Shown here piece after piece: positions 10,927 through 35,722 of a stretch of DNA of 64,000 bases; position 1 is the first letter of the stretch, and every line of letters starts with the position of its first letter. Made by a program: the position numbers and the translations under genes. The notes beneath the pieces were generated by a model, which was given only the letters and a program-made list of their open reading frames with translations, did no database searches and was not told the origin of the DNA. The DNA comes from a virus: IMG/VR virus record IMGVR_UViG_3300023265_000001. One strand, given 5' to 3'.

Positions 10927-11049
10927 ATGCAGCAGACGATCGAGCGCAAGGCTACCGACAAGAACGCCGGCCAGGAGACTGTGCCCACCGATCCGGCTCA
11001 CGAGCTGACCTGGGAGCGGGCCGTGGAAATGGCCATCGCTGGCTACTGA
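10927..11049 (+). CDS. array ORF 1, small hypothetical protein (40 aa)
   Basis: ATG 10927 after GAGCGAGGAG; stop TGA lies inside repeat SIR-01. Confidence 0.5.
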   Translation: MQQTIERKATDKNAGQETVPTDPAHELTWERAVEMAIAGY

Positions 11050-11108
11050 TCCTGTGGTTGAGGTCGAGGCGCGGCGTAAGCCGTGCTTGGACTCCGGCAC
11101 AGGGCCGG
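11046..11108 (+). repeat. SIR-01 structured intergenic repeat, family A
   Basis: CTGATC + outer stem CCTGTG/CACAGG + TTGAGGTCG + AGGCGCGGC/GCCGTGCTT hairpin + GCCGG. Confidence 0.85.
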
Positions 11109-11127
11109 TTTGGCAAGGGAGCGCGGC

Positions 11128-11352
11128 ATGGAAACCGAAACGTCGATGAACTTCGACCAGATGCACGACCAGCACGTGATCGAGTTCGCCGACCAGATCC
11201 TCGGGGTCAAGGAGTGGATGCGGATGTTCGGCAACAAAGATCACCCGCACTTCGGCCCGGTGACCGATCTCTGGGACCAGGCCGCCGCCGAGCTGGAGGA
11301 TCGCGGCCTTTTCGTCGAGTTCCGGGAAGAGCGAGGCATGGACCTGGACTGA
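11128..11352 (+). CDS. array ORF 2, hypothetical acidic protein (74 aa)
   Basis: ATG 11128 20 nt after SIR-01, GGGAG SD; stop in SIR-02. Confidence 0.6.
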   Translation: METETSMNFDQMHDQHVIEFADQILGVKEWMRMFGNKDHPHFGPVTDLWDQAAAELEDRGLFVEFREERGMDLD

Positions 11353-11411
11353 TCCTGCGGTTGAGGTCGAGGCGCGGTGCGAACCGTGCCTGGACTCCGG
11401 CGCAGGGCCGG
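11349..11411 (+). repeat. SIR-02, family A
   Basis: Outer stem CCTGCG/CGCAGG; inner AGGCGCGG tgcgaa CCGTGCCT. Confidence 0.85.
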
Positions 11412-11431
11412 ATGGAAGCGAGGAAGTTGTC

Positions 11432-11704
11432 ATGGACATGCTCAAGTTCGCCGAGGACATGTACGCCGTTTACTCGACGCGGCAGATGTTCCGGGTGGCT
11501 CGCCTGGTGACGCCGGACGAGGACCGTTCCCGCTGGGTGGCGACTGCCGACAGCCGGGTGTGGCGCCAGGACAACGATCGCTGGCAGGGCATGGGCGACT
11601 GGGAGGTTGTCCGGCACCCTGACGGGGAGATCCGGGAGCACCTGACCGAGCAGTTGCACCACTACGGCGTGGCTCCGTCGTCGCCGATGTGGGAGACGTA
11701 CTGA
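11432..11704 (+). CDS. array ORF 3, hypothetical protein (90 aa)
   Basis: ORF track; SD GAGGAAG; stop in SIR-03. Confidence 0.6.
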   Translation: MDMLKFAEDMYAVYSTRQMFRVARLVTPDEDRSRWVATADSRVWRQDNDRWQGMGDWEVVRHPDGEIREHLTEQLHHYGVAPSSPMWETY

Positions 11705-11763
11705 TCCTGCGGTTGAGGTCGAGGCGCGGCGTAGGCCGTGCCTGGACTCCGGCGCAGGGCCGG
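11701..11763 (+). repeat. SIR-03, family A
   Basis: Outer stem CCTGCG/CGCAGG; inner AGGCGCGGC gtag GCCGTGCCT. Confidence 0.85.
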
Positions 11764-11782
11764 ACGGAACGAGGGAGACATC

Positions 11783-12103
11783 ATGGGCGACGCCACGGCG
11801 GTCGAGATCATCACGGCGGCGGAACTGATCACGCCGGATGACTACACGACCGAACTGGGCAAGCGCTGGGCGGCGCACCGCAACGAGTGGGTGACCGTGA
11901 CCGAGATCCGGCTGGCGCACACCGGCGGCCAGCTGGCGGGCTACATCGTGGCCGGTGACGACAACCACGTGTTCGGCATGGCGGAGTGCACCGACGGCTC
12001 CTCCAAGTCGGTGGCGCACTGCGTCCTGGACACGTCGTCGGGCAGGGAGCACATGATCGCCAGTGTGATCGCTGTCTGGGCTGACAGCTGGGGCGGTAAC
12101 TGA
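11783..12103 (+). CDS. array ORF 4, hypothetical protein (106 aa)
   Basis: ATG 11783 after GAGGGAGACATC; stop in SIR-04. Confidence 0.6.
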   Translation: MGDATAVEIITAAELITPDDYTTELGKRWAAHRNEWVTVTEIRLAHTGGQLAGYIVAGDDNHVFGMAECTDGSSKSVAHCVLDTSSGREHMIASVIAVWADSWGGN

Positions 12104-12162
12104 TCCTGCGGTTGAGGTCGAGGCGCGGCGCTGGCCGTGCCTGGACTCCGGCGCAGGGCCGG
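12100..12162 (+). repeat. SIR-04, family A
   Basis: Outer stem CCTGCG/CGCAGG; same inner helix, loop gctg. Confidence 0.85.
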
Positions 12163-12180
12163 ATTGAGCAAGGGGGCGTC

Positions 12181-12426
12181 ATGCCGAAGTTCGAGATCCA
12201 CGCCAACGGGGACCGTCAGGAAACCATCGAGCTGGAGATGCCCAAGATCGGGCTGCTGATCGAGGTGGTCAGCGCGTTCTGGACGCACGATGTGTTCCGC
12301 AACGAGGGTGGCTGCCCGTTCACGGTTGCGGTGGTCAAGCACGACGGCCGAACCGTGGCGTATGGGTGGCTGGAGCCTGCGGGTTGGATGTGGGACGACA
12401 TCGACGAGGCTTACGACGAGAGCTGA
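12181..12426 (+). CDS. array ORF 5, hypothetical protein (81 aa)
   Basis: ATG 12181 after AGGGGG; stop in SIR-05. Confidence 0.6.
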   Translation: MPKFEIHANGDRQETIELEMPKIGLLIEVVSAFWTHDVFRNEGGCPFTVAVVKHDGRTVAYGWLEPAGWMWDDIDEAYDES

Positions 12427-12485
12427 TCCTGCGGTTGAGGTCGAGGCGCGGCGTAGGCCGTGCCTCGACTCCGGCGCAGGGCCGG
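12423..12485 (+). repeat. SIR-05, family A
   Basis: Outer stem CCTGCG/CGCAGG. Confidence 0.85.
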
Positions 12486-12504
12486 ACGTACGGAAGGTGT
12501 GAGC

Positions 12505-12762
12505 ATGAGCTACCGCGTCGAGGTGCTGGAGCCCCTCACGGAGGAGCCGCTGGGCTTCCTGATGACCGAGGACGACGAGAATCCGAACAACGTCGAGCGG
12601 GTCGCCAGCTTCGACACCCTGGAGGATGTCCGGCAGGCAATCGGCGAGTCGATCGCCGCTGGCCGCCCGATGGACTACCTGGTCGAGGACGAGAGCGGCG
12701 AGCACATCGGCGTGGCCTACGCCGATGGGGAGGTGTGGCACTACGAACTGCCCGAGGACTGA
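12505..12762 (+). CDS. array ORF 6, hypothetical strongly acidic protein (85 aa)
   Basis: ATG 12505 after GGAAGG; D/E-rich; stop in SIR-06. Confidence 0.6.
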   Translation: MSYRVEVLEPLTEEPLGFLMTEDDENPNNVERVASFDTLEDVRQAIGESIAAGRPMDYLVEDESGEHIGVAYADGEVWHYELPED

Positions 12763-12820
12763 TCCTGTGGTTGAGGGTGCGGGCCGCTACGGCGGCTCGT
12801 CGCCTCCGGCACAGGGCCGG
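12759..12820 (+). repeat. SIR-06, family B
   Basis: Outer stem CCTGTG/CACAGG; TTGAGGGTG; inner GCCGC tacg GCGGC; CGCCTCCGG. Confidence 0.85.
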
Positions 12821-12837
12821 ATGAGAGCGAGGGCACG

Positions 12838-13092
12838 ATGACCTTCCGAATGATGATCCGTGAGGCTGTCAAGGGTGGCGGCATCGAGGAATATCACCCC
12901 GAGGTCAGCGCCAAAGAGATCGACTACTTCGTCACGGTCACGGAGAAGTTCTACGGGGCCTGCCCGCAGTTCTTCGCGGTGACGATCATCGACGAGGACA
13001 CCGACGAACCGGTGCTGTACGGGGCTCGCCAGCAGGGCGACGTGTGGCGCTGGAGCGGGGCGTACTACGCACCACGGCCGAAAGGCTACTGA
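12838..13092 (+). CDS. array ORF 7, hypothetical protein (84 aa)
   Basis: ORF track; SD GAGGG; stop in SIR-07. Confidence 0.6.
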   Translation: MTFRMMIREAVKGGGIEEYHPEVSAKEIDYFVTVTEKFYGACPQFFAVTIIDEDTDEPVLYGARQQGDVWRWSGAYYAPRPKGY

Positions 13093-13151
13093 TCCTGCGG
13101 TTGAGGTCGAGGCGCGGCGTAGGCCGTGCCTGGACTCCGGCGCAGGGCCGG
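13089..13151 (+). repeat. SIR-07, family A
   Basis: Identical core to SIR-03. Confidence 0.85.
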
Positions 13152-13168
13152 ACGGAAGTGAGGGCATC

Positions 13169-13660
13169 ATGACCAGGATCATCGACCAGCGGGTCCGGGA
13201 CTTCGTCGCCGAGACCGGGCTGGATCTCGTGACGGTCAGCGAGTACGTCGAGGACGTCGTTACCGGCTACATCGGCACGCTGTTGTGGAGCGAGTCGTGC
13301 AACGGCACGGCGCCGTTGCACGTCTGCGACCACCTCAGTAGGCAAGGTGACGAGGCTGCCGACTGCGACACGAGCTTGGACTCGCTGGGCTACGCCGAGA
13401 ACGATCTCGCCGGGGAGGCTTACGACTCGATCCGGGAGGACGTCGCGGACTTCGTCTGCGCCAACTGGGCGGACCTGTACGGCTCCGACATGGACGCCGG
13501 GCAGGCCGGTCACGACTTCCTGCTCACCCGCAACCACCACGGTGCGGGTTTCTGGGACCGGGGGCTCGGCGAGCGTGGCGACAGGCTCACGGCCAACGCT
13601 CACCCGTACGGCACAACCGACGCCTACGTGGGAGACGACGAGCTGGTCTACGTGAGCTGA
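13169..13660 (+). CDS. array ORF 8, hypothetical acidic protein (163 aa)
   Basis: ORF track; conserved-looking GHDFLLTRNHHGAGFWDRG segment; stop in SIR-08. Confidence 0.65.
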   Translation: MTRIIDQRVRDFVAETGLDLVTVSEYVEDVVTGYIGTLLWSESCNGTAPLHVCDHLSRQGDEAADCDTSLDSLGYAENDLAGEAYDSIREDVADFVCANWADLYGSDMDAGQAGHDFLLTRNHHGAGFWDRGLGERGDRLTANAHPYGTTDAYVGDDELVYVS

Positions 13661-13720
13661 TCGTCCAGATGAGGGTGAGCGCCGGTTACGCCCGGCGCTT
13701 CGCCTCCGGTGGATGGCCGG
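13657..13720 (+). repeat. SIR-08, family B variant
   Basis: Outer stem GTCCA/TGGAT; ATGAGGGTG; inner GCGCCGG ttacg CCCGGCGC; CGCCTCCGG. Confidence 0.75.
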
Positions 13721-13741
13721 CCGATTTCCAGGAGGAATCTC

Positions 13742-14011
13742 ATGATCGCCAACCTGATCGACAAGACTCACGCCATCGGCGGTATCCGGGTGGCCGAGCG
13801 TCCCCGCCGCGCTGTGCGGCGCGGTGGCCCCGTGGTCATCGTGCCGCTGGCTGACGGTTCCGAGAAGGTCTACCCGGTCGGCCGTGATGTCGAGGTTACA
13901 GGCTGGACGGAGCCGTTCCAAGCGGGTCCGGTCAAGGCGCTTGTCGGTGGTCAGCGCATCGACTACGCCGAGCGTACGGCCAACTTCACCGTGAGCCGTA
14001 ATCCTCGCTGA
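13742..14011 (+). CDS. array ORF 9, hypothetical protein (89 aa)
   Basis: ATG 13742 after CAGGAGGAA. Confidence 0.6.
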   Translation: MIANLIDKTHAIGGIRVAERPRRAVRRGGPVVIVPLADGSEKVYPVGRDVEVTGWTEPFQAGPVKALVGGQRIDYAERTANFTVSRNPR

Positions 14012-14030
14012 GCTGAGTGTCACGGCCAAC

Positions 14031-14060
14031 TTGACAGGGTAGGGTGAGGGCCGCTACTGT
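14031..14060 (+). promoter_or_regulatory. promoter module copy 1
   Basis: TGTCACGGCCAACTTGACA; TTGACA 14031-36, 18-nt spacer, TACTGT 14055-60; homologous to modules at 17289 and 21759. Confidence 0.6.
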
Positions 14061-14096
14061 GGTCCTCAGCAAGGCAACGAGCGAGAGGGACGGGAC

Positions 14097-14294
14097 ATGG
14101 CAATCACACAGGACGTACTGGCGGGCAGCGCCGCATACGACGCAGTAGCCCAGACGGAGAGCGTCGAGGAAAAGCGACACCTGCTCCGGGCGTTCCGGCC
14201 GGGCGTGCTGCACTACCTCGCCGATGCGGTCTACGTGGAATGGGAGGGGCTGCGCGAGGAGACCGTGATCAACAACATCCTGACCGAACTCTGA
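14097..14294 (+). CDS. array ORF 10, hypothetical protein (65 aa)
   Basis: ORF track; SD GAGAGGGACGGGAC; stop in SIR-09. Confidence 0.6.
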   Translation: MAITQDVLAGSAAYDAVAQTESVEEKRHLLRAFRPGVLHYLADAVYVEWEGLREETVINNILTEL

Positions 14295-14352
14295 TCCTGT
14301 GGTTGAGGGTGGGCGCCAGCGTGCTGGCGCTACGCCTCCGGCACAGGGCCGG
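14291..14352 (+). repeat. SIR-09, family B
   Basis: Outer stem CCTGTG/CACAGG; inner GCGCCAG cgtg CTGGCGC. Confidence 0.85.
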
Positions 14353-14370
14353 TACGAGCAAGGGAGCGAC

Positions 14371-14748
14371 ATGGACCCCAACGCCGCGTTGGAGCAGATC
14401 AGGGCAGCCCGCCGAGAGATCCAGTCGGTGGCCGAGCAGATCGTCTGGCCCTACCAGGGCGACCGTGAGCGGAACCTGGAGCGGGTCGCCGAGGAGCTGG
14501 CCGAACTCTTCCAGGGCTTGGATGAGTTCCTGACACACGGCGGTTTTCTGCCGAGCGACTGGGAGGGCAAGCGCAAGGCGTTCACCCCGGAGCAGGGGGA
14601 CGTCATCGCCGAGGCGCTGGGCGACGCCTACGCCTACCGCAACGACTCCGGCGAGAGGGACGAGGAGGACCTGGAGGAGTACGAGCGGGAGGCGTGCCGC
14701 CGGTACACGCAGCTGGCGACCGAACTGGGCGTGAAGATCGCCAACTGA
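14371..14748 (+). CDS. array ORF 11, hypothetical acidic protein (125 aa)
   Basis: ATG 14371 after AGGGAG; stop in SIR-10. Confidence 0.6.
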   Translation: MDPNAALEQIRAARREIQSVAEQIVWPYQGDRERNLERVAEELAELFQGLDEFLTHGGFLPSDWEGKRKAFTPEQGDVIAEALGDAYAYRNDSGERDEEDLEEYEREACRRYTQLATELGVKIAN

Positions 14749-14806
14749 TCCTGTGGTTGAGGGTGCGGGCCGCCACGGCGGCCCGATGCCTCCGGCACAG
14801 GGCCGG
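14745..14806 (+). repeat. SIR-10, family B
   Basis: Outer stem CCTGTG/CACAGG; inner GGGCCGC cacg GCGGCCC. Confidence 0.85.
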
Positions 14807-14827
14807 AAGTGAGCACGAGGAGCGACC

Positions 14828-15187
14828 ATGAAGCTGCACACCGACATCCTGACGTCGATGAACATCGACGAGGCGCTGAACCGAGCCAAGGAGGCGGGCA
14901 AGGTCACTCGGGACATCTACTTCGTCCAGAAGAACGGCGCCGGGTCTCGGTCCCGCCGGGCCGGGTACGAGATCCAGCTGGGCACCGACGACAAGACGTC
15001 GGGACCGACCAACTCCCGGCGCTTCAAGAACAGCGGCTGGACCGGCGCCGACACGGTGTACGCGGCGACCTACGACGAGTGGGGATGGTTCATCGCCCAG
15101 CTCTTCCAGGTCGACCCTGACGCCATCTTCGGCGGCTACAAGGGCGTGGAGGACTTCCACGAGCAGACCAAGAACGCGTATCGCTGA
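14828..15187 (+). CDS. array ORF 12, hypothetical protein (119 aa)
   Basis: ORF track; SD GAGGAG; stop in SIR-11. Confidence 0.6.
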   Translation: MKLHTDILTSMNIDEALNRAKEAGKVTRDIYFVQKNGAGSRSRRAGYEIQLGTDDKTSGPTNSRRFKNSGWTGADTVYAATYDEWGWFIAQLFQVDPDAIFGGYKGVEDFHEQTKNAYR

Positions 15188-15245
15188 TCCTGCGGGTGAG
15201 GGTGGGCGCCGGGTAACCGGCGCCATGCCTCCGGCGCAGGGCCGG
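15184..15245 (+). repeat. SIR-11, family B
   Basis: Outer stem CCTGCG/CGCAGG; GTGAGGGTG; inner GGCGCCGG gtaa CCGGCGCC. Confidence 0.85.
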
Positions 15246-15264
15246 ACAGAATGAGGGAGACATC

Positions 15265-15642
15265 ATGGGCAGCGTCCTGGACTACTTCGTCCGTCACATC
15301 ACGCTGGTGCTCGACAACGACGAGGTGACCTACAACCGAATGACACGGACGGCGATCCGCATCGTCCGCAACAGCGGGGTCACGGTCTCCGAGTGGAAGA
15401 AGATGAACAGCGAGGACCGCCGCGACGAGTACGCCATGAAGATCGGCGAGCGTCTGGTGGAGATCATCGAGGATGAGTACCTCGCCGAGGCGGTCAGTGA
15501 CGGCACGGTCGGCGCGCAGCTGATCAGCGAGGTCATGATCACCGGCGACAGCGCGTTCGTCTACGAGATCGGCAGTCACTACATCCCCGAGGACGCCGAC
15601 GTCGTCGACCTGCTCGACGACGAGGACGAGGACGAGGACTGA
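15265..15642 (+). CDS. array ORF 13, hypothetical protein with poly-acidic tail (125 aa)
   Basis: ORF track; SD GAGGGAG; ends LLDDEDEDED; stop in SIR-12. Confidence 0.6.
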   Translation: MGSVLDYFVRHITLVLDNDEVTYNRMTRTAIRIVRNSGVTVSEWKKMNSEDRRDEYAMKIGERLVEIIEDEYLAEAVSDGTVGAQLISEVMITGDSAFVYEIGSHYIPEDADVVDLLDDEDEDED

Positions 15643-15700
15643 TCCTGCGGATGAGGGTGCGGGCCGCTGAAGCGGCCCGATGCCTCCGGCACAGGGCCGG
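15639..15700 (+). repeat. SIR-12, family B
   Basis: Outer stem CCTGCG/CACAGG (one mismatch); inner GGGCCGC tgaa GCGGCCC. Confidence 0.8.
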
Positions 15701-15719
15701 TATGTACGAGGGAGTGGCG

Positions 15720-16004
15720 ATGGCAACCCTTTACGGCGTGATCTACACAGCCGACGACGAGAGCACCACCGAGCACTCGGCCCACATCACCAAAGATGAC
15801 GCGGCACGGGCTGGCGCTGAGCTGGTCAAGGCCGAGGTCGAGCGCATCAGGTCGTGGGACCCGTCAGCGCCTGACCTGCCCGAGGCGTGGGCAGGCGACT
15901 GGGACCTGATCGACTGGATGCGCTCGCACTACGAGGTGCGTCTGGAGATCGAGCCCGTCGAGGTCTCCGAGGATGTGATCCGGGCGCTGATTGCCCGGCG
16001 CTGA
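15720..16004 (+). CDS. array ORF 14, hypothetical acidic protein (94 aa)
   Basis: ATG 15720 after GAGGGAG; stop in SIR-13. Confidence 0.6.
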   Translation: MATLYGVIYTADDESTTEHSAHITKDDAARAGAELVKAEVERIRSWDPSAPDLPEAWAGDWDLIDWMRSHYEVRLEIEPVEVSEDVIRALIARR

Positions 16005-16062
16005 TCCTGCGGATGAAGGTGCGGGCCGCTACGGCGGCTCGTCGCCTCCGGCGCAGGGCCGG
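16001..16062 (+). repeat. SIR-13, family B
   Basis: Outer stem CCTGCG/CGCAGG; ATGAAGGTG; inner GGGCCGC tacg GCGGCTC. Confidence 0.85.
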
Positions 16063-16081
16063 ATGGAACGAGGGAGACACC

Positions 16082-16450: not shown

Positions 16451-16509
16451 CCGTACGGATGAGGGTGGCTGCCAGCACGCTGGCAGCTCGCCTCCGGCGT
16501 ACGGGCCGG
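16447..16509 (+). repeat. SIR-14, family B
   Basis: Outer stem CCGTACG/CGTACGG (covaries vs CCTGCG); inner GCTGCCAGC ac GCTGGCAGC. Confidence 0.85.
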
Positions 16510-16528
16510 ACTGACGAAGGGAAACATC

Positions 16529-29730: not shown

Positions 29731-29817
29731 TCGCAGGCGGCGCCAGGATGCACGATGATGGAGCGTACGCATCTACCGACGTCCATCCTGGCACCGCACC
29801 CGCACTGAGGAGATCGA

Positions 29818-30300: not shown

Positions 30301-30306
30301 AGAGGG

Positions 30307-30648
30307 ATGGCCATGCTGGACCCGAGCGAAGCCTGGGCGCTGGACGTCGAGGACGGCTCGCCGCCGACCATCGAGCACCCCGAGATCTTCACGCAGGGAA
30401 TGACCTGCCTTGGGTGCCCTGAGACATACGAAGGCATGCTGACCAGCGGCCTGCTGTTCTTCTTCCGCTACCGGCGAGGCCTGGCCTTCCTGGGCGTCGC
30501 GCCGACCGAGGACGGCGCGCTGATGGGCACCGAGTCGCAGGGGACCGGCGCATCGATGGCGGTCGGGGATGACCTGCAGGGGGTATTCAGCAACGACCAG
30601 CAGCGCAACGACACGTTCGCCGCGCTGCTGGACCGGATCTACCACTGA
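30307..30648 (+). CDS. hypothetical protein (113 aa)
   Basis: ORF track; stop abuts SIR-32. Confidence 0.6.
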   Translation: MAMLDPSEAWALDVEDGSPPTIEHPEIFTQGMTCLGCPETYEGMLTSGLLFFFRYRRGLAFLGVAPTEDGALMGTESQGTGASMAVGDDLQGVFSNDQQRNDTFAALLDRIYH

Positions 30649-30704
30649 CGTGCGCTGATGGTCGCAGCCGGGCCTGCCGGCTGCGTGCCACCGTCGCATG
30701 GCGG
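30646..30704 (+). repeat. SIR-32, family C
   Basis: Outer stem CGTGCG/CGCATG; CTGATGG; inner GCAGCCGGG cct GCCGGCTGC. Confidence 0.8.
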
Positions 30705-30718
30705 AGAGATGAGGAGTC

Positions 30719-30919
30719 ATGGAGAGCAGCAAACGAACCGAGAAGTGGCTGGTGCTGAACAGCTCGCTCGGCTGGCCGATCGAATGCAAGGACGCCGACC
30801 AGGCGGCCGACATGGTCCGCGAGTTCCGAACGGACAACACGCTGGTCGAGCGGATCGTCACCGTGACCACCACGACCACCAGCCAGGTGACCGTGGCTGA
30901 GTTCCTGGGAGAGCCCTAG
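30719..30919 (+). CDS. hypothetical protein (66 aa)
   Basis: ORF track; SD GAGGAG. Confidence 0.6.
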   Translation: MESSKRTEKWLVLNSSLGWPIECKDADQAADMVREFRTDNTLVERIVTVTTTTTSQVTVAEFLGEP

Positions 30920-31188
30920 TGGTCTGGCAACGTGGCCGGCTCCGCGCCGGCGGAACCGGCTTCGTCGGCGAGTCGGCCGGAGCGGGCCTGCGCGCCGACG
31001 ACAGCAAGCGGATCGCCTGCCCGAAGTGCGGCGCAGGGATCCGGATGCGCTGCCGCGGCAAGGACGGTCACTACCTGCAGCGGCTGCACACGGAACGACA
31101 GGCCGCGTTCAAAGAGGTCAGACAGCCTTCGCTCACGGCCCGCCGCCGGCCCGCGCAGCGCCCGCAAGCAGAAGAGGGAGAGGAGTGA
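30919..31188 (+). CDS. basic zinc-ribbon-like protein (89 aa)
   Basis: GTG 30919; CPKCGAGIRMRCRGKDGH; start uncertain. Confidence 0.45.
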   Translation: MVWQRGRLRAGGTGFVGESAGAGLRADDSKRIACPKCGAGIRMRCRGKDGHYLQRLHTERQAAFKEVRQPSLTARRRPAQRPQAEEGEE

Positions 31189-31190
31189 CG

Positions 31191-31427
31191 ATGCGACTGT
31201 TTCTCGTAACCGACTGGGCCGCCAGCTTCAACGAGCTGGAGGCCGCGGTGGTGCTGGCCGACTCGCCCAACGAAGCCAGGGAGCTGGTCGAGGAGGCCGA
31301 CCTGGCCGCCGCTGCCAGGCCGAACCGCGACGGCTCGATGCCGCCGCTGCGCAAGGGCGCGCAGCTGGTCGTCCTGGAGTTGCCGATGGAGCGTGGCATC
31401 GTGCACGGGAACGGCCGGTGGGCCTGA
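31191..31427 (+). CDS. hypothetical protein (78 aa)
   Basis: ATG 31191 after GGGAGAGGAG. Confidence 0.55.
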   Translation: MRLFLVTDWAASFNELEAAVVLADSPNEARELVEEADLAAAARPNRDGSMPPLRKGAQLVVLELPMERGIVHGNGRWA

Positions 31428-31783
31428 TGGTCGACCCCGTCCTGCACGGCATGTTCCTCGGCGACGTGCTGCTGACCGCCCTGATCGACACCGAGGGCTC
31501 GCTGGGCACCTGGGCCATCTGCGGATCCTGGCAGACCGAATCCTGCCTGGAGGTGGCCGTACGGCAGGCCAGCGGGGTCCGGATCCATATCAACCGGCAG
31601 GTCATCGAGCGCGGCCTGGCGCGGGCGCTCGGCTGTGAGGGCAGCGGGCCGACGGAGCTGGATGCCGATGCGCACTCCAGGATCGTGAAGGCCGACGCCA
31701 AGCAGGATGCCAGCCACCTGACGCCGGCGGCAGCCAGCATGGTCATCCAGCTCGGGGTGTTCGGCCGGGTGCTGTACCGATGA
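31427..31783 (+). CDS. hypothetical protein (118 aa)
   Basis: ATG 31427 overlaps upstream TGA; tail of ORF 30932..31783. Confidence 0.55.
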   Translation: MVDPVLHGMFLGDVLLTALIDTEGSLGTWAICGSWQTESCLEVAVRQASGVRIHINRQVIERGLARALGCEGSGPTELDADAHSRIVKADAKQDASHLTPAAASMVIQLGVFGRVLYR

Positions 31784-32211
31784 CCGTGCCGCCGCGGAAG
31801 GTCAACGGGCAGTGCCCTGAGTGCCTGCGCCACGACCTGTGGCAGGCGCCACGTAACTGCGTGCGCTGCGCCATGCAGGAGGCGGACCAGATGGGCTACA
31901 AGGCCTTCAACCTCTCCGAGATGTCGGCCTGGGACGACGACTTCTACGCCACCCTGATCAGGCACTACGAGGCCGGCTGGGTCCGGCCGGCGCACTTCTA
32001 CGTCTACGTGGGCTACACCCGCGGCCGGCTCAACCTGCCCATGGAGCCGCTGATGAGCCTGGACGCGACAGGCTGGGACGCCGCTGCCGGGCGGTACGAG
32101 AGCGCGGTAGTCGCCACCATGGCGGCGATGCGCGCAACCTACCGGTACGAGGCGGTGTGGATCGTGACGAAGTCCGGTGCCTGGATGATCGCGGACACCC
32201 GTAGTTTCTAA
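31780..32211 (+). CDS. hypothetical protein with N-terminal CxxC..CxxC (143 aa)
   Basis: ORF track; ATGA overlap. Confidence 0.6.
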   Translation: MTVPPRKVNGQCPECLRHDLWQAPRNCVRCAMQEADQMGYKAFNLSEMSAWDDDFYATLIRHYEAGWVRPAHFYVYVGYTRGRLNLPMEPLMSLDATGWDAAAGRYESAVVATMAAMRATYRYEAVWIVTKSGAWMIADTRSF

Positions 32212-32278
32212 TCCGTCAAGTGACACTGGACAATGTCCGGATGATCAGGTAACGTACCTGGTAGAAGCCGGACCGATC

Positions 32279-32312
32279 CACTCAGCGCCCGCCGGTCGGC
32301 GGGCGCTGAGTG
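32279..32312 (+). terminator. strong GC hairpin (terminator or leader structure)
   Basis: CACTCAGCGCCCGCC ggtc GGCGGGCGCTGAGTG; no U-tract. Confidence 0.45.
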
Positions 32313-32350
32313 CTGTCGGGACGAAACCGCACGTAGTGAAGGGAGAGACC

Positions 32351-32803
32351 GTGATCAGCATCAACGACGTGATCGCCTTGAGCGAGAAGATCAAGAACGC
32401 ACCCCAGTTCGCCGGCGCCGAAGGTGCGGCCACGGTGGCGGGCCTCATCGACGAGGCCCGCGTGGTCTACGGCAAGTGGCTGAACGTCACCCGGGCACGC
32501 ATCCTGGCCGACGAGCACTACCTGAACGGCGCGTCGCAGCGCACCCTGGCGTCCACGCAGGGCGTCTCGGTCAACGCGGTCTCGCTGTGGCTGAAGCAGT
32601 ACGGCCCGACGGAGTACGTGACCGTCCGGCAGGAGGCCGAGGCCTTCGTGATCGAGACCGTGAAGCCGCGGGCGGTCCGGGACCTGATCGGCGCCGGCCG
32701 GCGCGTGGCGCCATCCACGTGGGGTCTGTTCGACAACGACCTGGGCCTGATCTACACGGGCAAGCCCGAGAAGCTGTGGAACAACCTGGCCAGCCAGGCC
32801 TGA
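32351..32803 (+). CDS. HTH DNA-binding protein (150 aa)
   Basis: GTG 32351 4 nt after GAAGGGAGAG; GASQRTLASTQGVSVNAVSLWLKQYG helix-turn-helix. Confidence 0.6.
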   Translation: MISINDVIALSEKIKNAPQFAGAEGAATVAGLIDEARVVYGKWLNVTRARILADEHYLNGASQRTLASTQGVSVNAVSLWLKQYGPTEYVTVRQEAEAFVIETVKPRAVRDLIGAGRRVAPSTWGLFDNDLGLIYTGKPEKLWNNLASQA

Positions 32804-32804
32804 T

Positions 32805-32839
32805 AGAGGGCACGCATCCATGAGGGGCGTGCCCTCTTG
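32805..32839 (+). terminator. intrinsic terminator
   Basis: AGAGGGCACGC ... GCGTGCCCTCTT. Confidence 0.65.
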
Positions 32840-32859
32840 ATGTTGGTGTCACATCTGAC

Positions 32860-32889
32860 TTGACAGCGTAGGACAGTATTAGATAGGCT
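32860..32889 (+). promoter_or_regulatory. sigma70-type promoter
   Basis: TTGACA 32860-65, 18-nt spacer, TAGGCT 32884-89. Confidence 0.55.
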
Positions 32890-32917
32890 GACATCATAAG
32901 CAACGGAGGGAGAACGA

Positions 32918-33097
32918 ATGGACAGGGACGCATTCACCGTGCTGATCGCGGTGTGCACGCTGTTCGTCGGCATGCTGCTGATGGGCATCGTGGACAGCCA
33001 GTTCGAGAAGGCTCGCTGCAAAACCCTGGAGCGGGAGATCGGCGTCAACCTCGCCTACACCTTCAGCACCGGCTGCGTGCCGGCAGACAAGCTGTGA
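32918..33097 (+). CDS. small membrane protein (59 aa)
   Basis: ATG 32918 after CGGAGGGAG; one TM (FTVLIAVCTLFVGMLLMGIV); below ORF-track cut-off. Confidence 0.5.
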   Translation: MDRDAFTVLIAVCTLFVGMLLMGIVDSQFEKARCKTLEREIGVNLAYTFSTGCVPADKL

Positions 33098-33543
33098 GCG
33101 ACGACCAGCAGGGCACCAGCTCTGCAGACAGCGTCGGAGATGGGTTCCGGCGCATCGAACTGGCCGGCGGTACCGAGCGCGGTGAGCGCGGTGTGCAGTG
33201 GGCCGCGGCCGAAATGGTCCGCCGGCAGCAGACTCCGCTGGAGGGCGACGAGTCACGGCGGGAACGCTGGGACGAACCGCTGATCATCTACGTCGAAGAG
33301 ATCGGCGGCTTCAGCGAGCAGGCCAAAGACCTGCTCGCGCGACTTGCCCATGAGGGCCGATCGGAAGGCGTCGTCGTGTCGGTCAGGCGCGACGTGAAAG
33401 GCCCGAAGCACCCGGTCACCAGGCCGGTCTCGGAGCGGTTCGACCCGCCCCTGGAGTACCGGCCGTACGAAGAGATCTACGCCCTGGTGAACAGGCTGTG
33501 GGCAGACATCGAAAACCGAAGCACCACGAAGGGACGCAAATGA
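33094..33543 (+). CDS. hypothetical protein (149 aa)
   Basis: GTG 33094 overlaps upstream stop (GTGA); tail of ORF 32953..33543. Confidence 0.5.
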   Translation: MSDDQQGTSSADSVGDGFRRIELAGGTERGERGVQWAAAEMVRRQQTPLEGDESRRERWDEPLIIYVEEIGGFSEQAKDLLARLAHEGRSEGVVVSVRRDVKGPKHPVTRPVSERFDPPLEYRPYEEIYALVNRLWADIENRSTTKGRK

Positions 33544-34811
33544 CCGACGTCAACGAGGCTTTCCGCACCGAGCGCCTCTCCCAGATCGCCTTCGCCCAGA
33601 GCGCCGGCGAGCGGGCCGCGCAGAGCAACGAGGACCGGGTCCGCGAGTTCGACAGCCGTGTCGCGGACGGCAAGCTCCGCAACCTCGGCAACAACCGGTT
33701 CCAGGTCACCGACCCCAGCTCCTGGGACAACGGCGAGGTGCTGGTCCTGCGTCAGATCGACGTGCAGGGCGTGATGCAGCGGCAGATCCTGCCGGAGCAC
33801 GGCCTCGACGACAGCACCGGCACCGTGAAGGTCTACTCCCGGGCGCCGATGTGGCACGAGCTGGGCACCGTCATCCCCGAGGGCGTCAGCGACATCGACA
33901 CGGTCATGGAGCTGGGCGGCCTGAACTACCAGGTCGAGAAGCGGCCGTACCTCTATCGCAACCCGGTCACCGGCGTCGAGGAGACCCTCGACGGCCAGTT
34001 CACCACGTACCGGATGGACACCGGGAAGGCGCTCGGCACCGTCGGCAACATGTACGAGCCGGCGCAGAACCGCGACAGCTTCGAGTTCCTGGAGAAGCTG
34101 GTCGCCCGGACCGGCGTCATCTGGGAGTCGGCCGGCCCGCTGCGCAACGGCGCCAAGACGTTCGTCTCGATGCGCCTGCCGCAGGAGATCCGCATCGACC
34201 CGAACGGCGTGAACGACGAGATCCTGCCGTTCGTGATCGCCCTGAACAGCCACGACGGCTCCGGCAAGTTCGAGGTCATGGTCAGCCCGTGGCGCCCGAT
34301 CTGCGGCAACACGGAGCGGTTCGCCGTCCGGGACGCGCTGGTCCGCTGGGGCACCCGCCACACCAGCAACGGCGACGACAAGATGCGCGAGAAGATCCTC
34401 GACGCGCAGCGCACGATGGCCAACTCGGTCCAGTACTTCGAGCGGTTTGTCGAGGAGGAGAACGCGCTCGCGCAGGTGGCGATGCGGGACTCCGACATCG
34501 ACGCTCTGATCAACGAGATCTGGGGCGAGGTCGACGAGGACGCGACCAAGCAGGCCATCACCAAGCGCGCGAAGTTCGCGGAGAAGATCCGGCAGGGCCA
34601 CGCCGTCAACGTGGAGCAGGTCGGGTCCACCCTCTACGCCTTCGAGCGCACCGTGACCGCGTTCGCGGACCACGAGAAGACCTACAAGCCGCGCTCCAGC
34701 TCGCTGAAGGGCAAGGACGCCCTCATCCGGGCGACCGCGGTGGTCGAGGATCTCTCGGGCGACCTGAAGAGCCGGGCGCACCGCAAGCTGATGCTCCGCG
34801 TCAACCGCTGA
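33540..34811 (+). CDS. DUF932 (phage/plasmid-like TIGR03299-type) protein
   Basis: ATG 33540 (ATGA overlap); 423 aa; YRMDTGKALGTVGNMYEPAQN, GAKTFVSMRLP, LNSHDGSGKFEVMVSPWRPICGNT. Confidence 0.75.
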   Translation: MTDVNEAFRTERLSQIAFAQSAGERAAQSNEDRVREFDSRVADGKLRNLGNNRFQVTDPSSWDNGEVLVLRQIDVQGVMQRQILPEHGLDDSTGTVKVYSRAPMWHELGTVIPEGVSDIDTVMELGGLNYQVEKRPYLYRNPVTGVEETLDGQFTTYRMDTGKALGTVGNMYEPAQNRDSFEFLEKLVARTGVIWESAGPLRNGAKTFVSMRLPQEIRIDPNGVNDEILPFVIALNSHDGSGKFEVMVSPWRPICGNTERFAVRDALVRWGTRHTSNGDDKMREKILDAQRTMANSVQYFERFVEEENALAQVAMRDSDIDALINEIWGEVDEDATKQAITKRAKFAEKIRQGHAVNVEQVGSTLYAFERTVTAFADHEKTYKPRSSSLKGKDALIRATAVVEDLSGDLKSRAHRKLMLRVNR

Positions 34812-34868
34812 CCTGACCATCACCGTCGTCGCCGGCTCCGGCCGGCGGCGAGCGGCGGTCGCCAGGAG
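34809..34868 (+). repeat. SIR-33, family D
   Basis: TGA + CCTGAC..GTCgcCAGG outer stem; inner ACCGtCGtCGCCGGC tcc GCCGGCGgCGagCGG; runs into AGGAGG SD. Confidence 0.8.
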
Positions 34869-34889
34869 GCGAACGAGACAGGGGAAACC

Positions 34890-35228
34890 ATGACCAAGAC
34901 GAACCTGAACGAGCTGATGGACCGGATCATCAACGGCCCCGACCCGTTCGAGCGGGCCAAGATCGCCTACGAGAACTTCGCTGAGGGCTGGCGCCGCGCG
35001 AACCAGGCGACACGCGGCATCGACGACCTGATGGATCGGAGCGCCGAGCTGGCCCGGTCCGGCGGCAGGGACACCGAGCTGCTGGTGGAGATCGCCGATC
35101 GTCTGGAGCGGTTCGCGGTCGAGAAAGAGCGAAGCCGAGTGATCGACACGATCACCGCCAGCACCGCCGCGGAGATGCGCTGCCTGTCGGAGGTCTACCG
35201 GCGGCTCGCCCAGAAGGACGACGAGTAG
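34890..35228 (+). CDS. hypothetical protein (112 aa)
   Basis: ORF track. Confidence 0.6.
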   Translation: MTKTNLNELMDRIINGPDPFERAKIAYENFAEGWRRANQATRGIDDLMDRSAELARSGGRDTELLVEIADRLERFAVEKERSRVIDTITASTAAEMRCLSEVYRRLAQKDDE

Positions 35229-35286
35229 CAGCCTGACCATCACCGTCGTCGCCGGCTCCGGCCGGCGGCGTGCGGCGGTCGCCAGG
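35226..35286 (+). repeat. SIR-34, family D
   Basis: ~95% identical to SIR-33 over ~75 nt although flanking ORFs are unrelated. Confidence 0.8.
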
Positions 35287-35308
35287 AGGCGAACGAGAGA
35301 GGGGCAAC

Positions 35309-35671
35309 ATGTCGCAGCACCTGGAGTACTTCGAGTCCATCGCTCTGGACCTGAAGCAGCTGAGGTATCGAGACGACGACCTGGCGCAGCTGCTGGTCCG
35401 TGGCACCCGGTACGGCGGGGACTGGGTACTGAGCGCCAGTCCGTTCTTCGACGGCCAGCCGACGGACGCCGGCGTCGTCGGGAAGATCGAGACCACGGGC
35501 GTGAAGGGTGACGCCACCTGGGCGTTTCAGACCGCCTGCGTCTGGGTCGGGGACGCATGCAAGAAGGCGGACCTGGTGGTGGCGAGTTCGGAAGATCTCC
35601 GCAACCTGCTGCCGGCCGAGGAGCGCGAGTACTTCTGCAACGCGATGATCTTCATCGACCGGCTGCTCTGA
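35309..35671 (+). CDS. hypothetical protein (120 aa)
   Basis: ATG 35309 after GAGAGGGGCAAC. Confidence 0.6.
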   Translation: MSQHLEYFESIALDLKQLRYRDDDLAQLLVRGTRYGGDWVLSASPFFDGQPTDAGVVGKIETTGVKGDATWAFQTACVWVGDACKKADLVVASSEDLRNLLPAEEREYFCNAMIFIDRLL

Positions 35672-35722
35672 CCACCACCGTGCGGCCCGGGATACCCCCG
35701 GGCCGGGCGGCGGTCGCCAGGA
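35669..35722 (+). repeat. SIR-35, family D variant
   Basis: ACCGtGCGGCCCGGG atac CCCGGGCCGgGCGG then GGTCGCCAGGAGGCGAC. Confidence 0.65.

What the first reader, a model, noticed from the sequence alone, without database searches (positions are those of the whole stretch)
11046..35722. 36-copy structured intergenic repeat (SIR) punctuating a co-directional small-ORF array
Seen directly: there are 36 copies of a 55-65-nt element, all on the + strand and all sitting exactly between co-directional ORFs.

Shared architecture:
- The upstream stop codon, usually inside a conserved CTGATC.
- A 5-7-bp outer stem.
- A short conserved linker, nTGAGGG or nTGATGG.
- A GC-rich inner hairpin of 7-13 bp with a 3-5-nt loop.
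- The closing strand of the outer stem, then GCCGG or GCGG.
- About 15-25 nt carrying a Shine-Dalgarno sequence and the next start codon.

Four sequence families occur in blocks along the array: A x6 (11.0-13.2 kb), B x10 (12.8-16.9 kb plus 57.3 kb), C x17 (17.2-30.7 kb) and D x3 (34.8-35.7 kb).

The outer stem covaries while keeping complementarity: CCTGCG/CGCAGG, CCTGTG/CACAGG, CCGTACG/CGTACGG, CGTGCG/CGCACG, CGAGCG/CGCTCG, CGTGCA/TGCACG, GTGTG/CACAC, GTCTG/CAGAC, CCGCA/TGCGG. Inner hairpins differ in sequence (GGGCCGC/GCGGCCC, GCGCCAG/CTGGCGC, GGCGCCGG/CCGGCGCC, GCTGCCAGC/GCTGGCAGC and others) but always pair. Conservation of structure rather than sequence argues for selection on a folded RNA or ssDNA.

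I cannot place it in any described class:
- It is not CRISPR.
- It lacks the RYYYAAC/GTTRRRY boxes of integron attC.
- It has no U-tract like a canonical terminator.

Working hypotheses:
- (i) RNase III/E-type processing or 3'-stabiliser sites, as in the T7 early region.
- (ii) Leaky 'I-shaped' terminators that grade expression along the array.
- (iii) Recombination joints that let ORF cassettes be shuffled while keeping stop, SD and start intact, analogous to T4 PeSL elements or attC.
Basis: partly seen in the sequence, partly recalled or inferred. Interest (0 to 1): 0.9.

Follow-up and report, generated by a model that had tools for sequence, protein, structure and literature searches.

The report
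Two-state RNA hairpins punctuating phage genes
An uncultivated 141-kb soil phage separates its small early genes with 36 or more copies of a 60-base element whose RNA can fold in two mutually exclusive ways around the stop codon; it most likely marks and protects individual messages, and it is also where gene cassettes are gained and lost between strains.

Summary
All 36 copies (A x6, B x10, C x17, D x3) lie on the + strand. Each starts at the stop codon of one small ORF and ends 15-27 nt before the next start.

The window is part of a ~141-kb uncultivated actinophage. The array sits in operons driven by eight + strand TTGACA-type promoter-like sites.

The 'GCCGG/GCGG' tail is the 3' strand of a third helix, P3. 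The loop of P3 is the 3' strand of the outer stem P1, so P1 and P3 exclude each other:
- closed form, P1+P2: -41 kcal/mol
- open form, P2+P3: -35 kcal/mol

All three helices covary. Across strains, stems vary five-fold less than loops. UNCG/GNRA tetraloops are enriched. The architecture recurs in distant relatives.

No U-tract, attC boxes, integrase or Rfam match was found.

Strain comparison shows ORF cassettes gained, lost and replaced with breakpoints inside the elements. At one locus a C-type copy is replaced by a B-type copy.

Best reading: an intercistronic RNA punctuation element for processing, stability and insulation, which also acts as a homologous-recombination joint. The precise RNA mechanism is untested.

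The parts
10927..36202 (+). Co-directional array of about 61 small ORFs (40-423 aa), almost all of unknown function, read on the + strand
   Evidence: GC3-based gene calls. Gene calls on the same contig agree. Of 49 ORFs scanned, 1 hits Pfam. No paralogy among them.
11050..11108 (+). SIR copy A1 (P1 first nt to P3 last nt)
11353..11411 (+). SIR copy A2
   Evidence: Left edge of a gene replacement in strains L159 and L024.
11705..11763 (+). SIR copy A3
   Evidence: Junction of the deletion in strain L164.
12104..12162 (+). SIR copy A4
   Evidence: Junction of the deletion in strain L164.
12427..12485 (+). SIR copy A5
12763..12820 (+). SIR copy B1
13093..13151 (+). SIR copy A6
13661..13720 (+). 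SIR copy B2 (P1 TCGTCCA/TGGATGG)
14295..14352 (+). SIR copy B3
   Evidence: Junction of the deletion in strain L011.
14749..14806 (+). SIR copy B4
   Evidence: Junction of the deletion in strain L011.
15188..15245 (+). SIR copy B5
15643..15700 (+). SIR copy B6 (one mismatch in P1)
16005..16062 (+). SIR copy B7
16451..16509 (+). SIR copy B8 (P1 CCGTACG/CGTACGG)
16865..16923 (+). SIR copy B9
17231..17287 (+). SIR copy C1 (P3 CCGTC/GACGG), directly upstream of the promoter-like site at 17307
17785..17841 (+). SIR copy C2
18159..18214 (+). SIR copy C3
18892..18948 (+). SIR copy C4. The linker TGA is the stop codon, and the P1 5' strand encodes the ORF's last residues.
   Evidence: Site of an extra cassette in strain L003.
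19547..19603 (+). SIR copy C5
19908..19964 (+). SIR copy C6 (linker TGA is the stop)
20343..20399 (+). SIR copy C7 (linker TGA is the stop)
20810..20867 (+). SIR copy C8
21700..21758 (+). SIR copy C9, directly upstream of the promoter-like site at 21778
22018..22074 (+). SIR copy C10
   Evidence: Site of an extra cassette in strain L159.
22539..22595 (+). SIR copy C11 (linker TGA is the stop)
22899..22957 (+). SIR copy C12. It has no linker TGA and lies in a 5' leader after a promoter-like TTGACG site.
23200..23256 (+). SIR copy C13
23698..23754 (+). SIR copy C14 (linker TGA is the stop)
24749..24806 (+). SIR copy C15 (linker TGA is the stop; weak P1)
26175..26232 (+). SIR copy C16, upstream of the promoter-like site at 26248. 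Strain L032 has a B-type element at this locus.
30648..30704 (+). SIR copy C17
34812..34872 (+). D1: D-family element after the DUF932 gene. P1 is CCTG/CAGG next to the stop, and P3 is TCGCC-AGGA-GGCGA.
   Evidence: Copies at the same position in relatives L155, L167, L170 and L171.
35232..35292 (+). D2
35667..35728 (+). D3
57338..57395 (+). SIR copy B10, isolated, after the vWA gene
25485..25560 (+). In the MFE the post-stop CTTCTG pairs with the downstream SD.
   Evidence: weak CM hit at E 0.048
28714..28776 (+). Additional E-type hairpin (ACTGA.../...GTCAGT), similar in sequence to elements of relatives L155 and L167
9965..10295 (+). Three tandem promoter-like sites (TTGACA-N16-19-TANNNT) upstream of the array
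   Evidence: 8 sites, all on the + strand, against 0.10 expected
14031..14060 (+). Internal promoter-like site
17307..17335 (+). Internal promoter-like site within repeat D16
21778..21806 (+). Internal promoter-like site within repeat D16
26248..26276 (+). Internal promoter-like site
32860..32889 (+). Internal promoter-like site
36212..36246 (.). GC-rich hairpin between the last array gene and a convergent GH25 gene; marks the end of the array

Best explanation
The elements are transcribed, strand-specific intercistronic RNA modules in the early small-gene operons of a ~141-kb uncultivated actinobacterial phage. Each unit runs from the stop codon of one ORF to about 20 nt before the next start.

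**Two exclusive folds**
- Closed: outer stem P1 stacks on the GC-rich hairpin P2. This gives an irregular hairpin of about 25 nt per arm whose base abuts or contains the stop codon.
- Open: P2 stands beside a small 4-6-bp hairpin P3. The loop of P3 is the 3' strand of P1.
- A ribosome sitting on the stop codon, or a cut at the base of the long hairpin, must convert closed to open.

**Proposed function (inferred)**
- The module punctuates polycistronic early mRNA.
- The closed form is a double-strand-specific (RNase III-type) processing substrate.
- After opening or cleavage, P2 stays as a 3' protective hairpin on the upstream cistron.
- P3 forms as a 5' cap directly ahead of a purine-rich, unstructured Shine-Dalgarno leader.
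- Each ORF is therefore expressed as an insulated unit.

**Second role (shown)**
- The same ~60-nt unit recurs at high identity. It is also the homologous-recombination joint at which ORF cassettes are inserted, deleted and exchanged between strains.

**Shown versus inferred**
- Shown: anatomy, the three covarying helices, their mutual exclusion, constraint on stems, absence of a T-run, cassette breakpoints.
- Predicted from promoter-like consensus sites only: the position of the copies inside operons.
- Inferred: transcription, nuclease cleavage, stabilisation, insulation.
For: **Structure under selection**
- P1+P2 on 31 aligned copies: 87.8% of cells paired against 75.9% shuffled. 14 of 21 pairs changed on both sides. 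0 of 500 shuffles reach the observed values. Slid controls give 29-60%.
- P1 self against non-self complementarity: 5.96 against 4.30 bp, 0 of 10000 permutations.
- In six copies the P1 5' strand is the last codons of unrelated ORFs, and the 3' strand matches each one.

**P3**
- 12 distinct 14-nt variants are 100% paired. 3 of 5 pairs changed on both sides. No shuffle in 500 reaches the observed paired fraction or covariation score; 3 of 500 reach the count of pairs changed on both sides.
- Further variants read directly: CCGGC/GCCGG, CCTCC/GGAGG, CCCCG/CGGGG.
- The P1 3' strand lies inside P3 in every A-C copy.

**Energetics**
- Closed -41.2 against open -34.8 kcal/mol.

**Population evidence**
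- Across 14 contigs from closely related strains (roughly 94-99.8% identical), paired positions are 1.3% polymorphic. Unpaired positions are 6.5% (odds ratio 5.4, p=8e-9). The array average is 3.6%.

**RNA signatures**
- 15 of 38 apical loops are UNCG or GNRA.
- The covariance model scores 79 bits on the + strand against 26 on the mirror strand.

**Boundaries**
- The information profile shows the repeat unit runs exactly from the stop codon to the end of P3.

**Context**
- Eight + strand promoter-like sites against 0.10 expected place most copies inside operons.
- The spacer after the element is 71% purine and 9% T.

**Conservation**
- C-type copies with the P1/P3 design occur in relatives L155, L167, L169, L171 and L296. 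D-type copies sit at the same position after DUF932. These relatives share 48-64% protein identity.

**Recombination**
- Cassette indels have their breakpoints inside elements.
- A C-type copy is replaced by a B-type copy at one locus.
Against: - No transcript data exist. Transcription, cleavage and stabilisation are all inferred.
- No RNase III recognition features can be tested by sequence, and the host is unknown.
- If RNase III cut both strands, the upstream cistron would lose P2. The model needs a T7-like single cut on the 3' side.
- P3 is absent or weak in some D/E-type copies of relatives (L155 at 11260, L170 at 2341), so it is not universal.
- Promoter-like sites every 3-4.5 kb would also suit a decaying read-through model, that is, leaky termination.
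- Copies within a genome are related by descent or gene conversion, so shuffle tests overstate independence.
- The + strand fold is more stable than the - strand fold in only 23 of 36 copies.
Confidence: 0.4

Rival explanations
1. Leaky, factor-independent 'I-shaped' terminators without a U-tract, as reported for the phiC31 early region. Each element stops a fraction of polymerases, so expression is graded along the array and is re-boosted by the internal promoters.
For: - The hairpins are very stable and GC-rich and start right after stop codons.
- C1, C9 and C16 sit immediately upstream of promoter-like sites.
- Promoter-like sites recur every 3-4.5 kb, as expected if read-through decays.
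- There is precedent in Ingham et al. 1995, NAR 23:370. It is listed as reference 24 of PMC3993855; its content is recalled from memory.
Against: - No + strand hairpin followed by a T-run is found in 10-30 kb.
- The downstream 15-27 nt are 9% T.
- Mycobacterial RNA polymerase needs a U-tract in vitro, according to the title of PMC3993855. Its discussion says that such hairpins may instead stabilise RNA ends.
- About 30 copies lie inside operons of 8-11 genes. Even modest termination at each copy would silence the distal genes.
- Termination does not explain P3 or the exact register with the stop codon.
Confidence: 0.2
2. A ribosome-driven switch that needs no cleavage. The terminating ribosome melts P1, and P3 snaps shut. 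This pays back part of the unwinding cost, so the ribosome does not stall at a stop codon buried in a helix. It also keeps the next ribosome-binding site in a constant unstructured context. The element would act as a translational insulator or coupler.
For: - The stop codon ends 0-2 nt before P1, or lies in the linker, in 31 of 33 A-C copies.
- The open state is only 6.4 kcal/mol less stable than the closed state.
- The leader is purine-rich and carries a Shine-Dalgarno sequence.
- In the E-type hairpin at 25485-25560, the post-stop CTTCTG pairs with the downstream SD in the MFE. This is the classical look of translational coupling.
Against: - In families A-C neither state sequesters the downstream SD or start codon, so no obvious on/off effect on initiation follows.
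- The idea is untested.
Confidence: 0.2
3. The primary selected function is at the DNA level. The elements would be standard junctions that let ORF cassettes be swapped between co-infecting phages, as in the linker-sequence idea for mosaic phages or, by analogy, attC. The RNA fold would be secondary.
For: - Five of six structural differences among strains have breakpoints inside elements.
- Inserted ORFs end in the element's own P1 strand and linker TGA.
- The element families are interchangeable at one locus.
- The ORFs between copies are unrelated.
Against: - Plain sequence identity would be enough for homologous recombination. It would not produce compensatory changes in three helices, five-fold lower polymorphism in stems, or UNCG/GNRA loops.
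- No attC boxes occur in any of the 36 copies.
- No integrase or recombinase is found in the window.
Confidence: 0.1
4. Selfish, REP- or MITE-like palindromic elements that have spread through the intergenic regions.
For: - The elements are multi-copy, palindromic and intergenic, and fall into sequence families arranged in blocks.
Against: - All copies share one orientation, and their register to the stop and start codons is exact.
- The P1 5' strand lies inside coding sequence in six copies.
- No terminal repeats, target duplications or transposase were seen.
- The 20-kb leftward gene cluster has no copy.
Confidence: 0.03
5. Single-stranded DNA structures, such as primosome or replication signals, or N4-like hairpin promoters.
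For: - Hairpins lie upstream of every gene, and P3 lies about 20 nt before each start.
Against: - UNCG and GNRA loops are stabilising motifs in RNA (established knowledge of RNA tetraloops; counts).
- The exact coupling to the stop codon has no rationale at the DNA level.
- Host-type promoter-like sites already account for transcription.
Confidence: 0.03

Closest known systems
RNase III processing sites between the early genes of coliphage T7/T3 (R0.3, R0.5, R1.1 and others; from general knowledge)
   Same: - Irregular hairpins of about two helical turns, with internal loops.
- They lie between co-directional early genes that are transcribed from tandem promoters at the left end.
- They leave a 3' hairpin on the upstream message.
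   Different: - There is no sequence relation.
- There are 36 or more copies here, against about ten in T7.
- The element starts exactly at the stop codon.
- It carries an alternative helix, P3, that T7 sites lack.
- Cleavage has not been shown.
Terminators without a poly-U tail in the early region of actinophage phiC31, and 'I-shaped' hairpins at actinobacterial 3' ends (Ingham et al. 1995, cited in PMC3993855)
   Same: - GC-rich hairpins without a U-tract.
- They follow the early genes of a high-GC actinophage.
   Different: - The copies here are repeated and fall into families.
- Most lie inside operons.
- They have two exclusive states.
- PMC3993855 argues that such hairpins may stabilise RNA ends rather than terminate transcription.
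REP/BIME elements of enterobacteria
   Same: - Repeated imperfect palindromes in intercistronic gaps.
- They can protect upstream mRNA from 3' exonucleases. When close to a stop codon they can affect translation (general knowledge; REP is discussed in PMC3993855).
   Different: - REPs occur in both orientations and in clusters.
- They are chromosomal and are linked to RAYT transposases.
- They have no fixed register to the stop and start codons, and no P3 equivalent.
SAS/ESAS (start-associated sequences) of Cluster K mycobacteriophages and Cluster EF Microbacterium phages (PMC3203893, PMC7302621)
   Same: - Repeated motifs in one orientation in the short gaps of the non-structural genes of actinophages.
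- ESAS is an inverted repeat just upstream of a conserved ribosome-binding motif.
- They are associated with unrelated genes.
- Their function is unknown.
   Different: - SAS/ESAS are conserved in sequence: a 13-bp motif plus 17-bp inverted repeats.
- Here the structure is conserved while the sequence varies.
- The SAS consensus is at chance level in the window.
- The elements here are anchored to the stop codon.
Integron attC sites
   Same: - One structured imperfect palindrome follows each co-oriented promoterless cassette.
- Structure is conserved more than sequence.
- Cassette content varies between strains.
   Different: - No R/L core boxes occur in any of the 36 copies.
- No IntI integrase is present.
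- The junctions look like homologous exchange between identical repeats.
- The element sits in a phage.

Membership tests
Canonical intrinsic (hairpin + U-tract) terminator | GC-rich hairpin | tested here: met
   MFE of -38 to -49 kcal/mol, with z-scores of -3 to -6
Canonical intrinsic (hairpin + U-tract) terminator | U-rich tract of 7-9 nt directly after the stem | tested here: not met
   No + strand terminator-like site in 10-30 kb. The spacer after the element is 9% T.
Canonical intrinsic (hairpin + U-tract) terminator | Located at the ends of transcription units | tested here: not met
   Only C1, C9 and C16 directly precede promoter-like sites. About 30 copies are internal. The promoters are predictions only.
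U-tract-less actinobacterial / phiC31-type terminators | Stable hairpin without a U-tract after a gene of a high-GC actinomycete or its phage | tested here: met
U-tract-less actinobacterial / phiC31-type terminators | Demonstrated release of RNA polymerase | not testable with these tools
   Needs in vitro transcription or Term-seq.
T7-type RNase III processing site | Irregular hairpin of about 20 bp or more, with an internal loop, in an intercistronic position of an early polycistronic transcript | tested here: met
   Arms of about 25 nt, with 1-3-nt internal loops between P1 and P2. Position inside operons is inferred.
T7-type RNase III processing site | Cleavage by RNase III | not testable with these tools
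   No enzyme assay or transcript ends are available.
Integron attC | R''/L''...L'/R' core sites (RYYYAAC ... GTTRRRY) | tested here: not met
   0 of 36 copies carry either box within 100 nt
Integron attC | Adjacent IntI tyrosine recombinase with attI and Pc | tested here: not met
   No recombinase domain in the roughly 100 ORFs of the window that were scanned. The rest of the 141-kb genome was mostly not examined; about 9.5 kb beyond the left end was seen.
Integron attC | Co-oriented cassette array whose content varies at the sites | tested here: met
REP/BIME | Copies in both orientations, often as inverted clusters, with a RAYT transposase in the genome | tested here: not met
   All 36 copies are on the + strand. 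No transposase was found.
SAS/ESAS of Cluster K phages | 13-bp motif GGGATAGGAGCCC at the ribosome-binding site | tested here: not met
   3 matches with up to 2 mismatches against 2.06 expected, and none lies at an element
SAS/ESAS of Cluster K phages | Inverted repeat upstream of the ribosome-binding site, in one orientation, restricted to non-structural genes | tested here: met
   compared with the descriptions read
CRISPR array | Near-identical short repeats separated by non-coding spacers of 26-72 bp | tested here: not met
   The spacing is 300-1700 bp and consists of ORFs
Any Rfam family | Match to a curated covariance model | tested here: not met
   None at gathering scores. One chance hairpin match at E 0.75.

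The most novel reading that the evidence does not exclude
The element is a standard 'plug-and-play' junction for phage early genes.

- It is a two-state RNA device driven by the terminating ribosome. It supplies the stop context and triggers processing.
- It leaves a 3' cap (P2) on one message and a 5' cap (P3) plus a clean ribosome-binding leader on the next.
- Its DNA is the homologous joint through which unrelated ORFs are exchanged in the phage population.
- It would be a functional analogue of the integron cassette system, built on RNA structure and general recombination instead of a site-specific integrase.
Probability: 0.25. Interest if true: 0.85.

Novelty: new variant of a known kind. 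Interest (0 to 1): 0.68.

Why it matters
- **Repeats in actinophage early regions.** Repeated intergenic motifs there (SAS/ESAS, the Cluster O and EG inverted repeats) have been catalogued for more than a decade without a mechanism. This element gives an unusually clear handle. It has three covarying helices, two of which are mutually exclusive. It is anchored to the stop codon. There is population-level evidence of constraint, and direct evidence that it is where genes come and go.
- **Hairpins without a U-tract.** If the two-state model holds, it would explain how a high-GC phage expresses dozens of unrelated small genes as autonomous units from a few promoters. It would also bear on what such hairpins do in Actinobacteria: termination or processing.
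- **Mosaicism.** It would explain how mosaicism in early regions can be channelled to gene boundaries without destroying expression.
- **Practical use.** It would offer a compact natural insulator part for actinomycete synthetic operons.

Tried and rejected
**Searches that found nothing**
- Megablast of 20 kb of the array against INPHARED phages and PLSDB plasmids: no match.
- Blastn of a single element against phages: no match.
- Rfam at gathering scores and at E<=1: nothing.
- tRNA scan of the window: none.

**Relatives that did not help**
- Myrna/Phabba and the Streptomyces phages Satis/Kradal share a vWA protein with the window. The Myrna and Satis regions fetched have tightly packed genes and no obviously similar spacing. 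The covariance-model scan over them failed for size and was not repeated.

**Uninformative public scans**
They say nothing about spread, except that no multi-copy locus appeared among the rows returned.
- The DUF932-based metagenome scan found only one further contig with a C-type copy.

**Ideas tested and dropped**
- Tandem gene duplication as the source of the repeats: rejected, because the ORFs are not paralogues.
- attC, SAS and CRISPR membership: rejected.
- UGA read as selenocysteine, or read-through to the in-frame linker TGA in A/B: rejected. The would-be extension peptide is not conserved (USCG, USSR, UPYG, USSG, read), and in family C the two TGAs are usually out of frame.
- P1 and P3 coexisting as a pseudoknot: rejected on geometry. 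The whole P3 loop and its closing pairs would have to pair with P1, leaving no connecting loops (inference).

**Weak or failed**
- Strand asymmetry of folding energy alone is weak: 23 of 36 copies are more stable on the + strand.
- One look-up, for the protein at 63506-63823, found no record. The genome to the right of the window was therefore not examined.

Full report
**What the window is.**
- The sequence is 67% G+C.
- It is identical to part of a 140,613-bp metagenome contig, ENA ERZ27228469 k141_1605235.
- Two other samples assembled it independently at 140,661 and 141,047 bp.
- No isolate phage or plasmid matches at the nucleotide level.
- Protein content points to a large actinobacterial phage:
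  - a vWA protein 45% identical to gp18 of the mycobacteriophages Myrna and Phabba, and 38-41% identical to proteins of ~185-kb Streptomyces phages;
  - two RNA ligases, PNKP, RlaP, a GH25 lysin and DUF932.
- The closest cellular DUF932 homologues are in Micromonospora and Dactylosporangium. This is only a hint about the host.

- A covariance model built from family C alone finds every A and B copy at E<=1e-3. The mirror strand scores far lower (79 against 26 bits for the best copy). D is found only at E 0.07-0.25.
- Two simple patterns give 15 matches against 0.04 expected, and 15 + strand matches against 1.77 expected.
- Eight representative copies fold with z-scores of -3.0 to -6.3.
- The array holds about 61 co-directional small ORFs. 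None is a paralogue of another. Only one of 49 scanned has a Pfam domain. The repeats are therefore not a by-product of gene duplication.
- Gaps that carry an element are remarkably uniform: 64-81 nt from stop to start.

- Each A-C unit has five parts in order:
  - an outer stem P1 of 6-7 bp;
  - a linker, nTGAGG or nTGATGG;
  - a GC-rich hairpin P2;
  - the 3' strand of P1;
  - a tail, GCCGG or GGCGG.
- That tail pairs with CCGGC or CCGCC just 5' of the P1 3' strand. This forms a 4-6-bp hairpin, P3, whose 4-7-nt loop is the P1 3' strand itself.
- P1 and P3 therefore cannot coexist.
- With the first 14 nt free, the closed fold (P1+P2) averages -41.2 kcal/mol. With them blocked, P2+P3 forms at -34.8 kcal/mol.
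- In family D the same logic holds. P1 is CCTG/CAGG next to the stop, and CAGG lies in the loop of P3, TCGCC-AGGA-GGCGA.
- In 25 of 33 A-C copies the stop codon ends 0-2 nt before P1. In six C copies the linker TGA is the stop, so the P1 5' strand encodes the last residues of unrelated proteins. P3 ends 15-27 nt before the next start, unless a promoter-like site or an extra small gene intervenes.
- An information profile shows that similarity between copies begins at the stop codon and ends at the last base of P3. Only a Shine-Dalgarno bump lies beyond.

**Evidence that the fold is selected.**
- On the model-based alignment of 31 copies, 87.8% of P1+P2 cells are paired, against 75.9% after shuffling. 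14 of 21 pairs changed on both sides. No shuffle in 500 reaches the observed values. Slid structures pair in 29-60% of cells.
- Across 23 distinct P1 classes, a copy's own two strands form a longer helix than strands from different copies: 5.96 against 4.30 bp, 0 of 10,000 permutations.
- For P3, twelve distinct 14-nt variants are all fully paired, with double changes at three of five pairs. Other loop lengths add CCGGC/GCCGG, CCTCC/GGAGG, CCCC/GGGG and CCCCG/CGGGG.
- Copies within one genome share ancestry, so two independent lines were added.
  - Fourteen contigs from closely related strains (roughly 94-99.8% identical) show 1.3% polymorphic sites at paired positions and 6.5% at unpaired positions of the elements (odds ratio 5.4, p=8e-9). 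The array as a whole shows 3.6%.
  - Relatives whose DUF932 proteins are only 48-64% identical carry C-type elements with the same P1/P2/P3 design. They also carry D-type elements at the same position after DUF932, with compensatory P2 changes.
- Eleven UNCG and four GNRA loops among 38 hairpins, together with the strand-specific model scores, favour RNA over DNA as the folded molecule.

**Transcriptional context.**
- TTGACA-N16-19-TANNNT occurs eight times, all on the + strand, against 0.10 expected. Three sites lie in tandem at 9965-10295 ahead of the array. The others are at 14031, 17307, 21778, 26248 and 32860.
- C1, C9 and C16 lie just upstream of such sites. About 30 copies are internal to predicted operons of 8-11 genes.
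- No + strand hairpin followed by a T-run exists in 10-30 kb.
- The leader after the element is 35% A, 36% G and 9% T.
- The 20 kb of leftward replication genes next to the array contain no copy.
- Other gaps of the array hold unique or E-type hairpins, and the array ends in a hairpin facing a convergent lysin gene.

**Recombination.**
- Among strain contigs, six structural differences were seen. Five have both or one breakpoint in an element.
  - L164 lacks the gene between A3 and A4.
  - L011 lacks the gene between B3 and B4 and carries a hybrid B3/B4 element.
  - L003 has an extra ORF flanked by two identical C4-type copies.
  - L159 has an extra ORF flanked by C10-type copies.
  - L159 and L024 replace one gene next to A2-A3 with a different one.
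- The inserted ORFs end in the element's own P1 strand and linker TGA ('...NER*', '...PEW*').
- At the C16 locus, strain L032 carries a B-type element between homologous flanks. The families are therefore interchangeable.
- The junctions are what homologous exchange between repeats would give.
- No integrase was found in the window, and no attC boxes are present.

**Interpretation.**
- The data establish a strand-specific, structure-constrained, two-state element tied to translation stop and start.
- How it works is inferred.
- Favoured model (confidence about 0.4): punctuation of polycistronic early mRNA.
  - The closed form is a long irregular duplex of the size used by double-strand-specific RNases.
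  - After opening or cutting, P2 protects the upstream 3' end.
  - P3 caps the downstream 5' end ahead of a clean ribosome-binding leader.
  - This is the only reading found here that uses the P1/P3 exclusivity, the exact unit boundaries and the intra-operon position together.
- Leaky U-less termination (0.2) and a cleavage-free, ribosome-driven insulator or coupler (0.2) remain open.
- A purely DNA-level recombination role (0.1) does not explain the RNA-type constraints. The recombination consequence itself is observed.

**Comparison with known systems.**
- The nearest functional analogues are:
  - T7 RNase III sites;
  - the U-less terminators of phiC31 (cited in PMC3993855);
  - REP elements.
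- The nearest descriptive analogues in actinophages are SAS/ESAS and related intergenic repeats. Their function is still unknown (PMC3203893, PMC7302621).
- The element fails the defining tests for canonical terminators, attC, REP, SAS, CRISPR and every Rfam family.
- I file it as a new variant of the known kind 'structured intercistronic repeat in phage early operons'. The two-state design is new.

Noticed in passing
window 4288-4340 and 4476-4575; also 51192-51260 and 61968-62036: Arrays of a 12-nt-periodic motif, (A/C)AT(G/A)GCAAAnnn. They lie in a ~970-nt non-coding stretch of lower GC and at two other sites. ATGGCAAANGC with up to 1 mismatch gives 15 hits against 1.86 expected. They look like iterons or operator/partition sites.
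   Followed up: partly
window 9965-10295, 14031, 17307, 21778, 26248, 32860: A family of + strand promoter-like sites (8 against 0.10 expected). Three lie in tandem ahead of the array, recalling the T7 A1-A3 layout. Those at 14031, 17307 and 21778 share a longer conserved block, GTCACGnCCnACTTGACA.
   Followed up: partly
window 53860-55038, 58207-59361, 60438-61370, 62284-63051: A set of RNA-repair genes: an Rnl1-like ligase, an Rnl2-like ligase, polynucleotide kinase-phosphatase, and an RlaP nucleotidyltransferase.
   Followed up: no
window 25485-25560: An E-type intercistronic hairpin in which the CTTCTG just after the stop codon pairs with the downstream Shine-Dalgarno sequence CAGAGGAG in the MFE. 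This is the classical look of translational coupling.
   Followed up: no
L168 (JGI Ga0606675_0001065), e.g. 1341-1442, 2693-2794, 3024-3112, 7602-7658: A more distant relative uses a different intergenic repeat. It is a ~35-nt palindrome built around TTGAC (for example CCAGCGCGCTTGAC...GTCCAGCGCGCTGTAC) and lies upstream of most small genes. A tRNA-like sequence follows its DUF932 gene.
   Followed up: no
L296 (WNFV01002741.1) 9367-9432: A single C-type element with intact P1, P2 and P3 lies in a 72% G+C contig whose DUF932 protein is only 48% identical. The family therefore extends beyond the close phage clade.
   Followed up: partly
window 28390-28406 (strain L032): One strain carries about 233 extra bases inside the tightly packed part of the array, not at an element.
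   Followed up: no
window 46036-48420 and 48512-49522: Two adjacent ORFs have weak FtsK/HerA-type P-loop matches. The 794-aa ORF has no relative in isolate phages.
   Followed up: no
window 11046-16945 (families A and B): In all 16 A/B copies the linker TGA is in frame with the real stop codon 12 nt upstream, giving a tandem stop. In family C the two TGAs are usually out of frame (read).
   Followed up: partly
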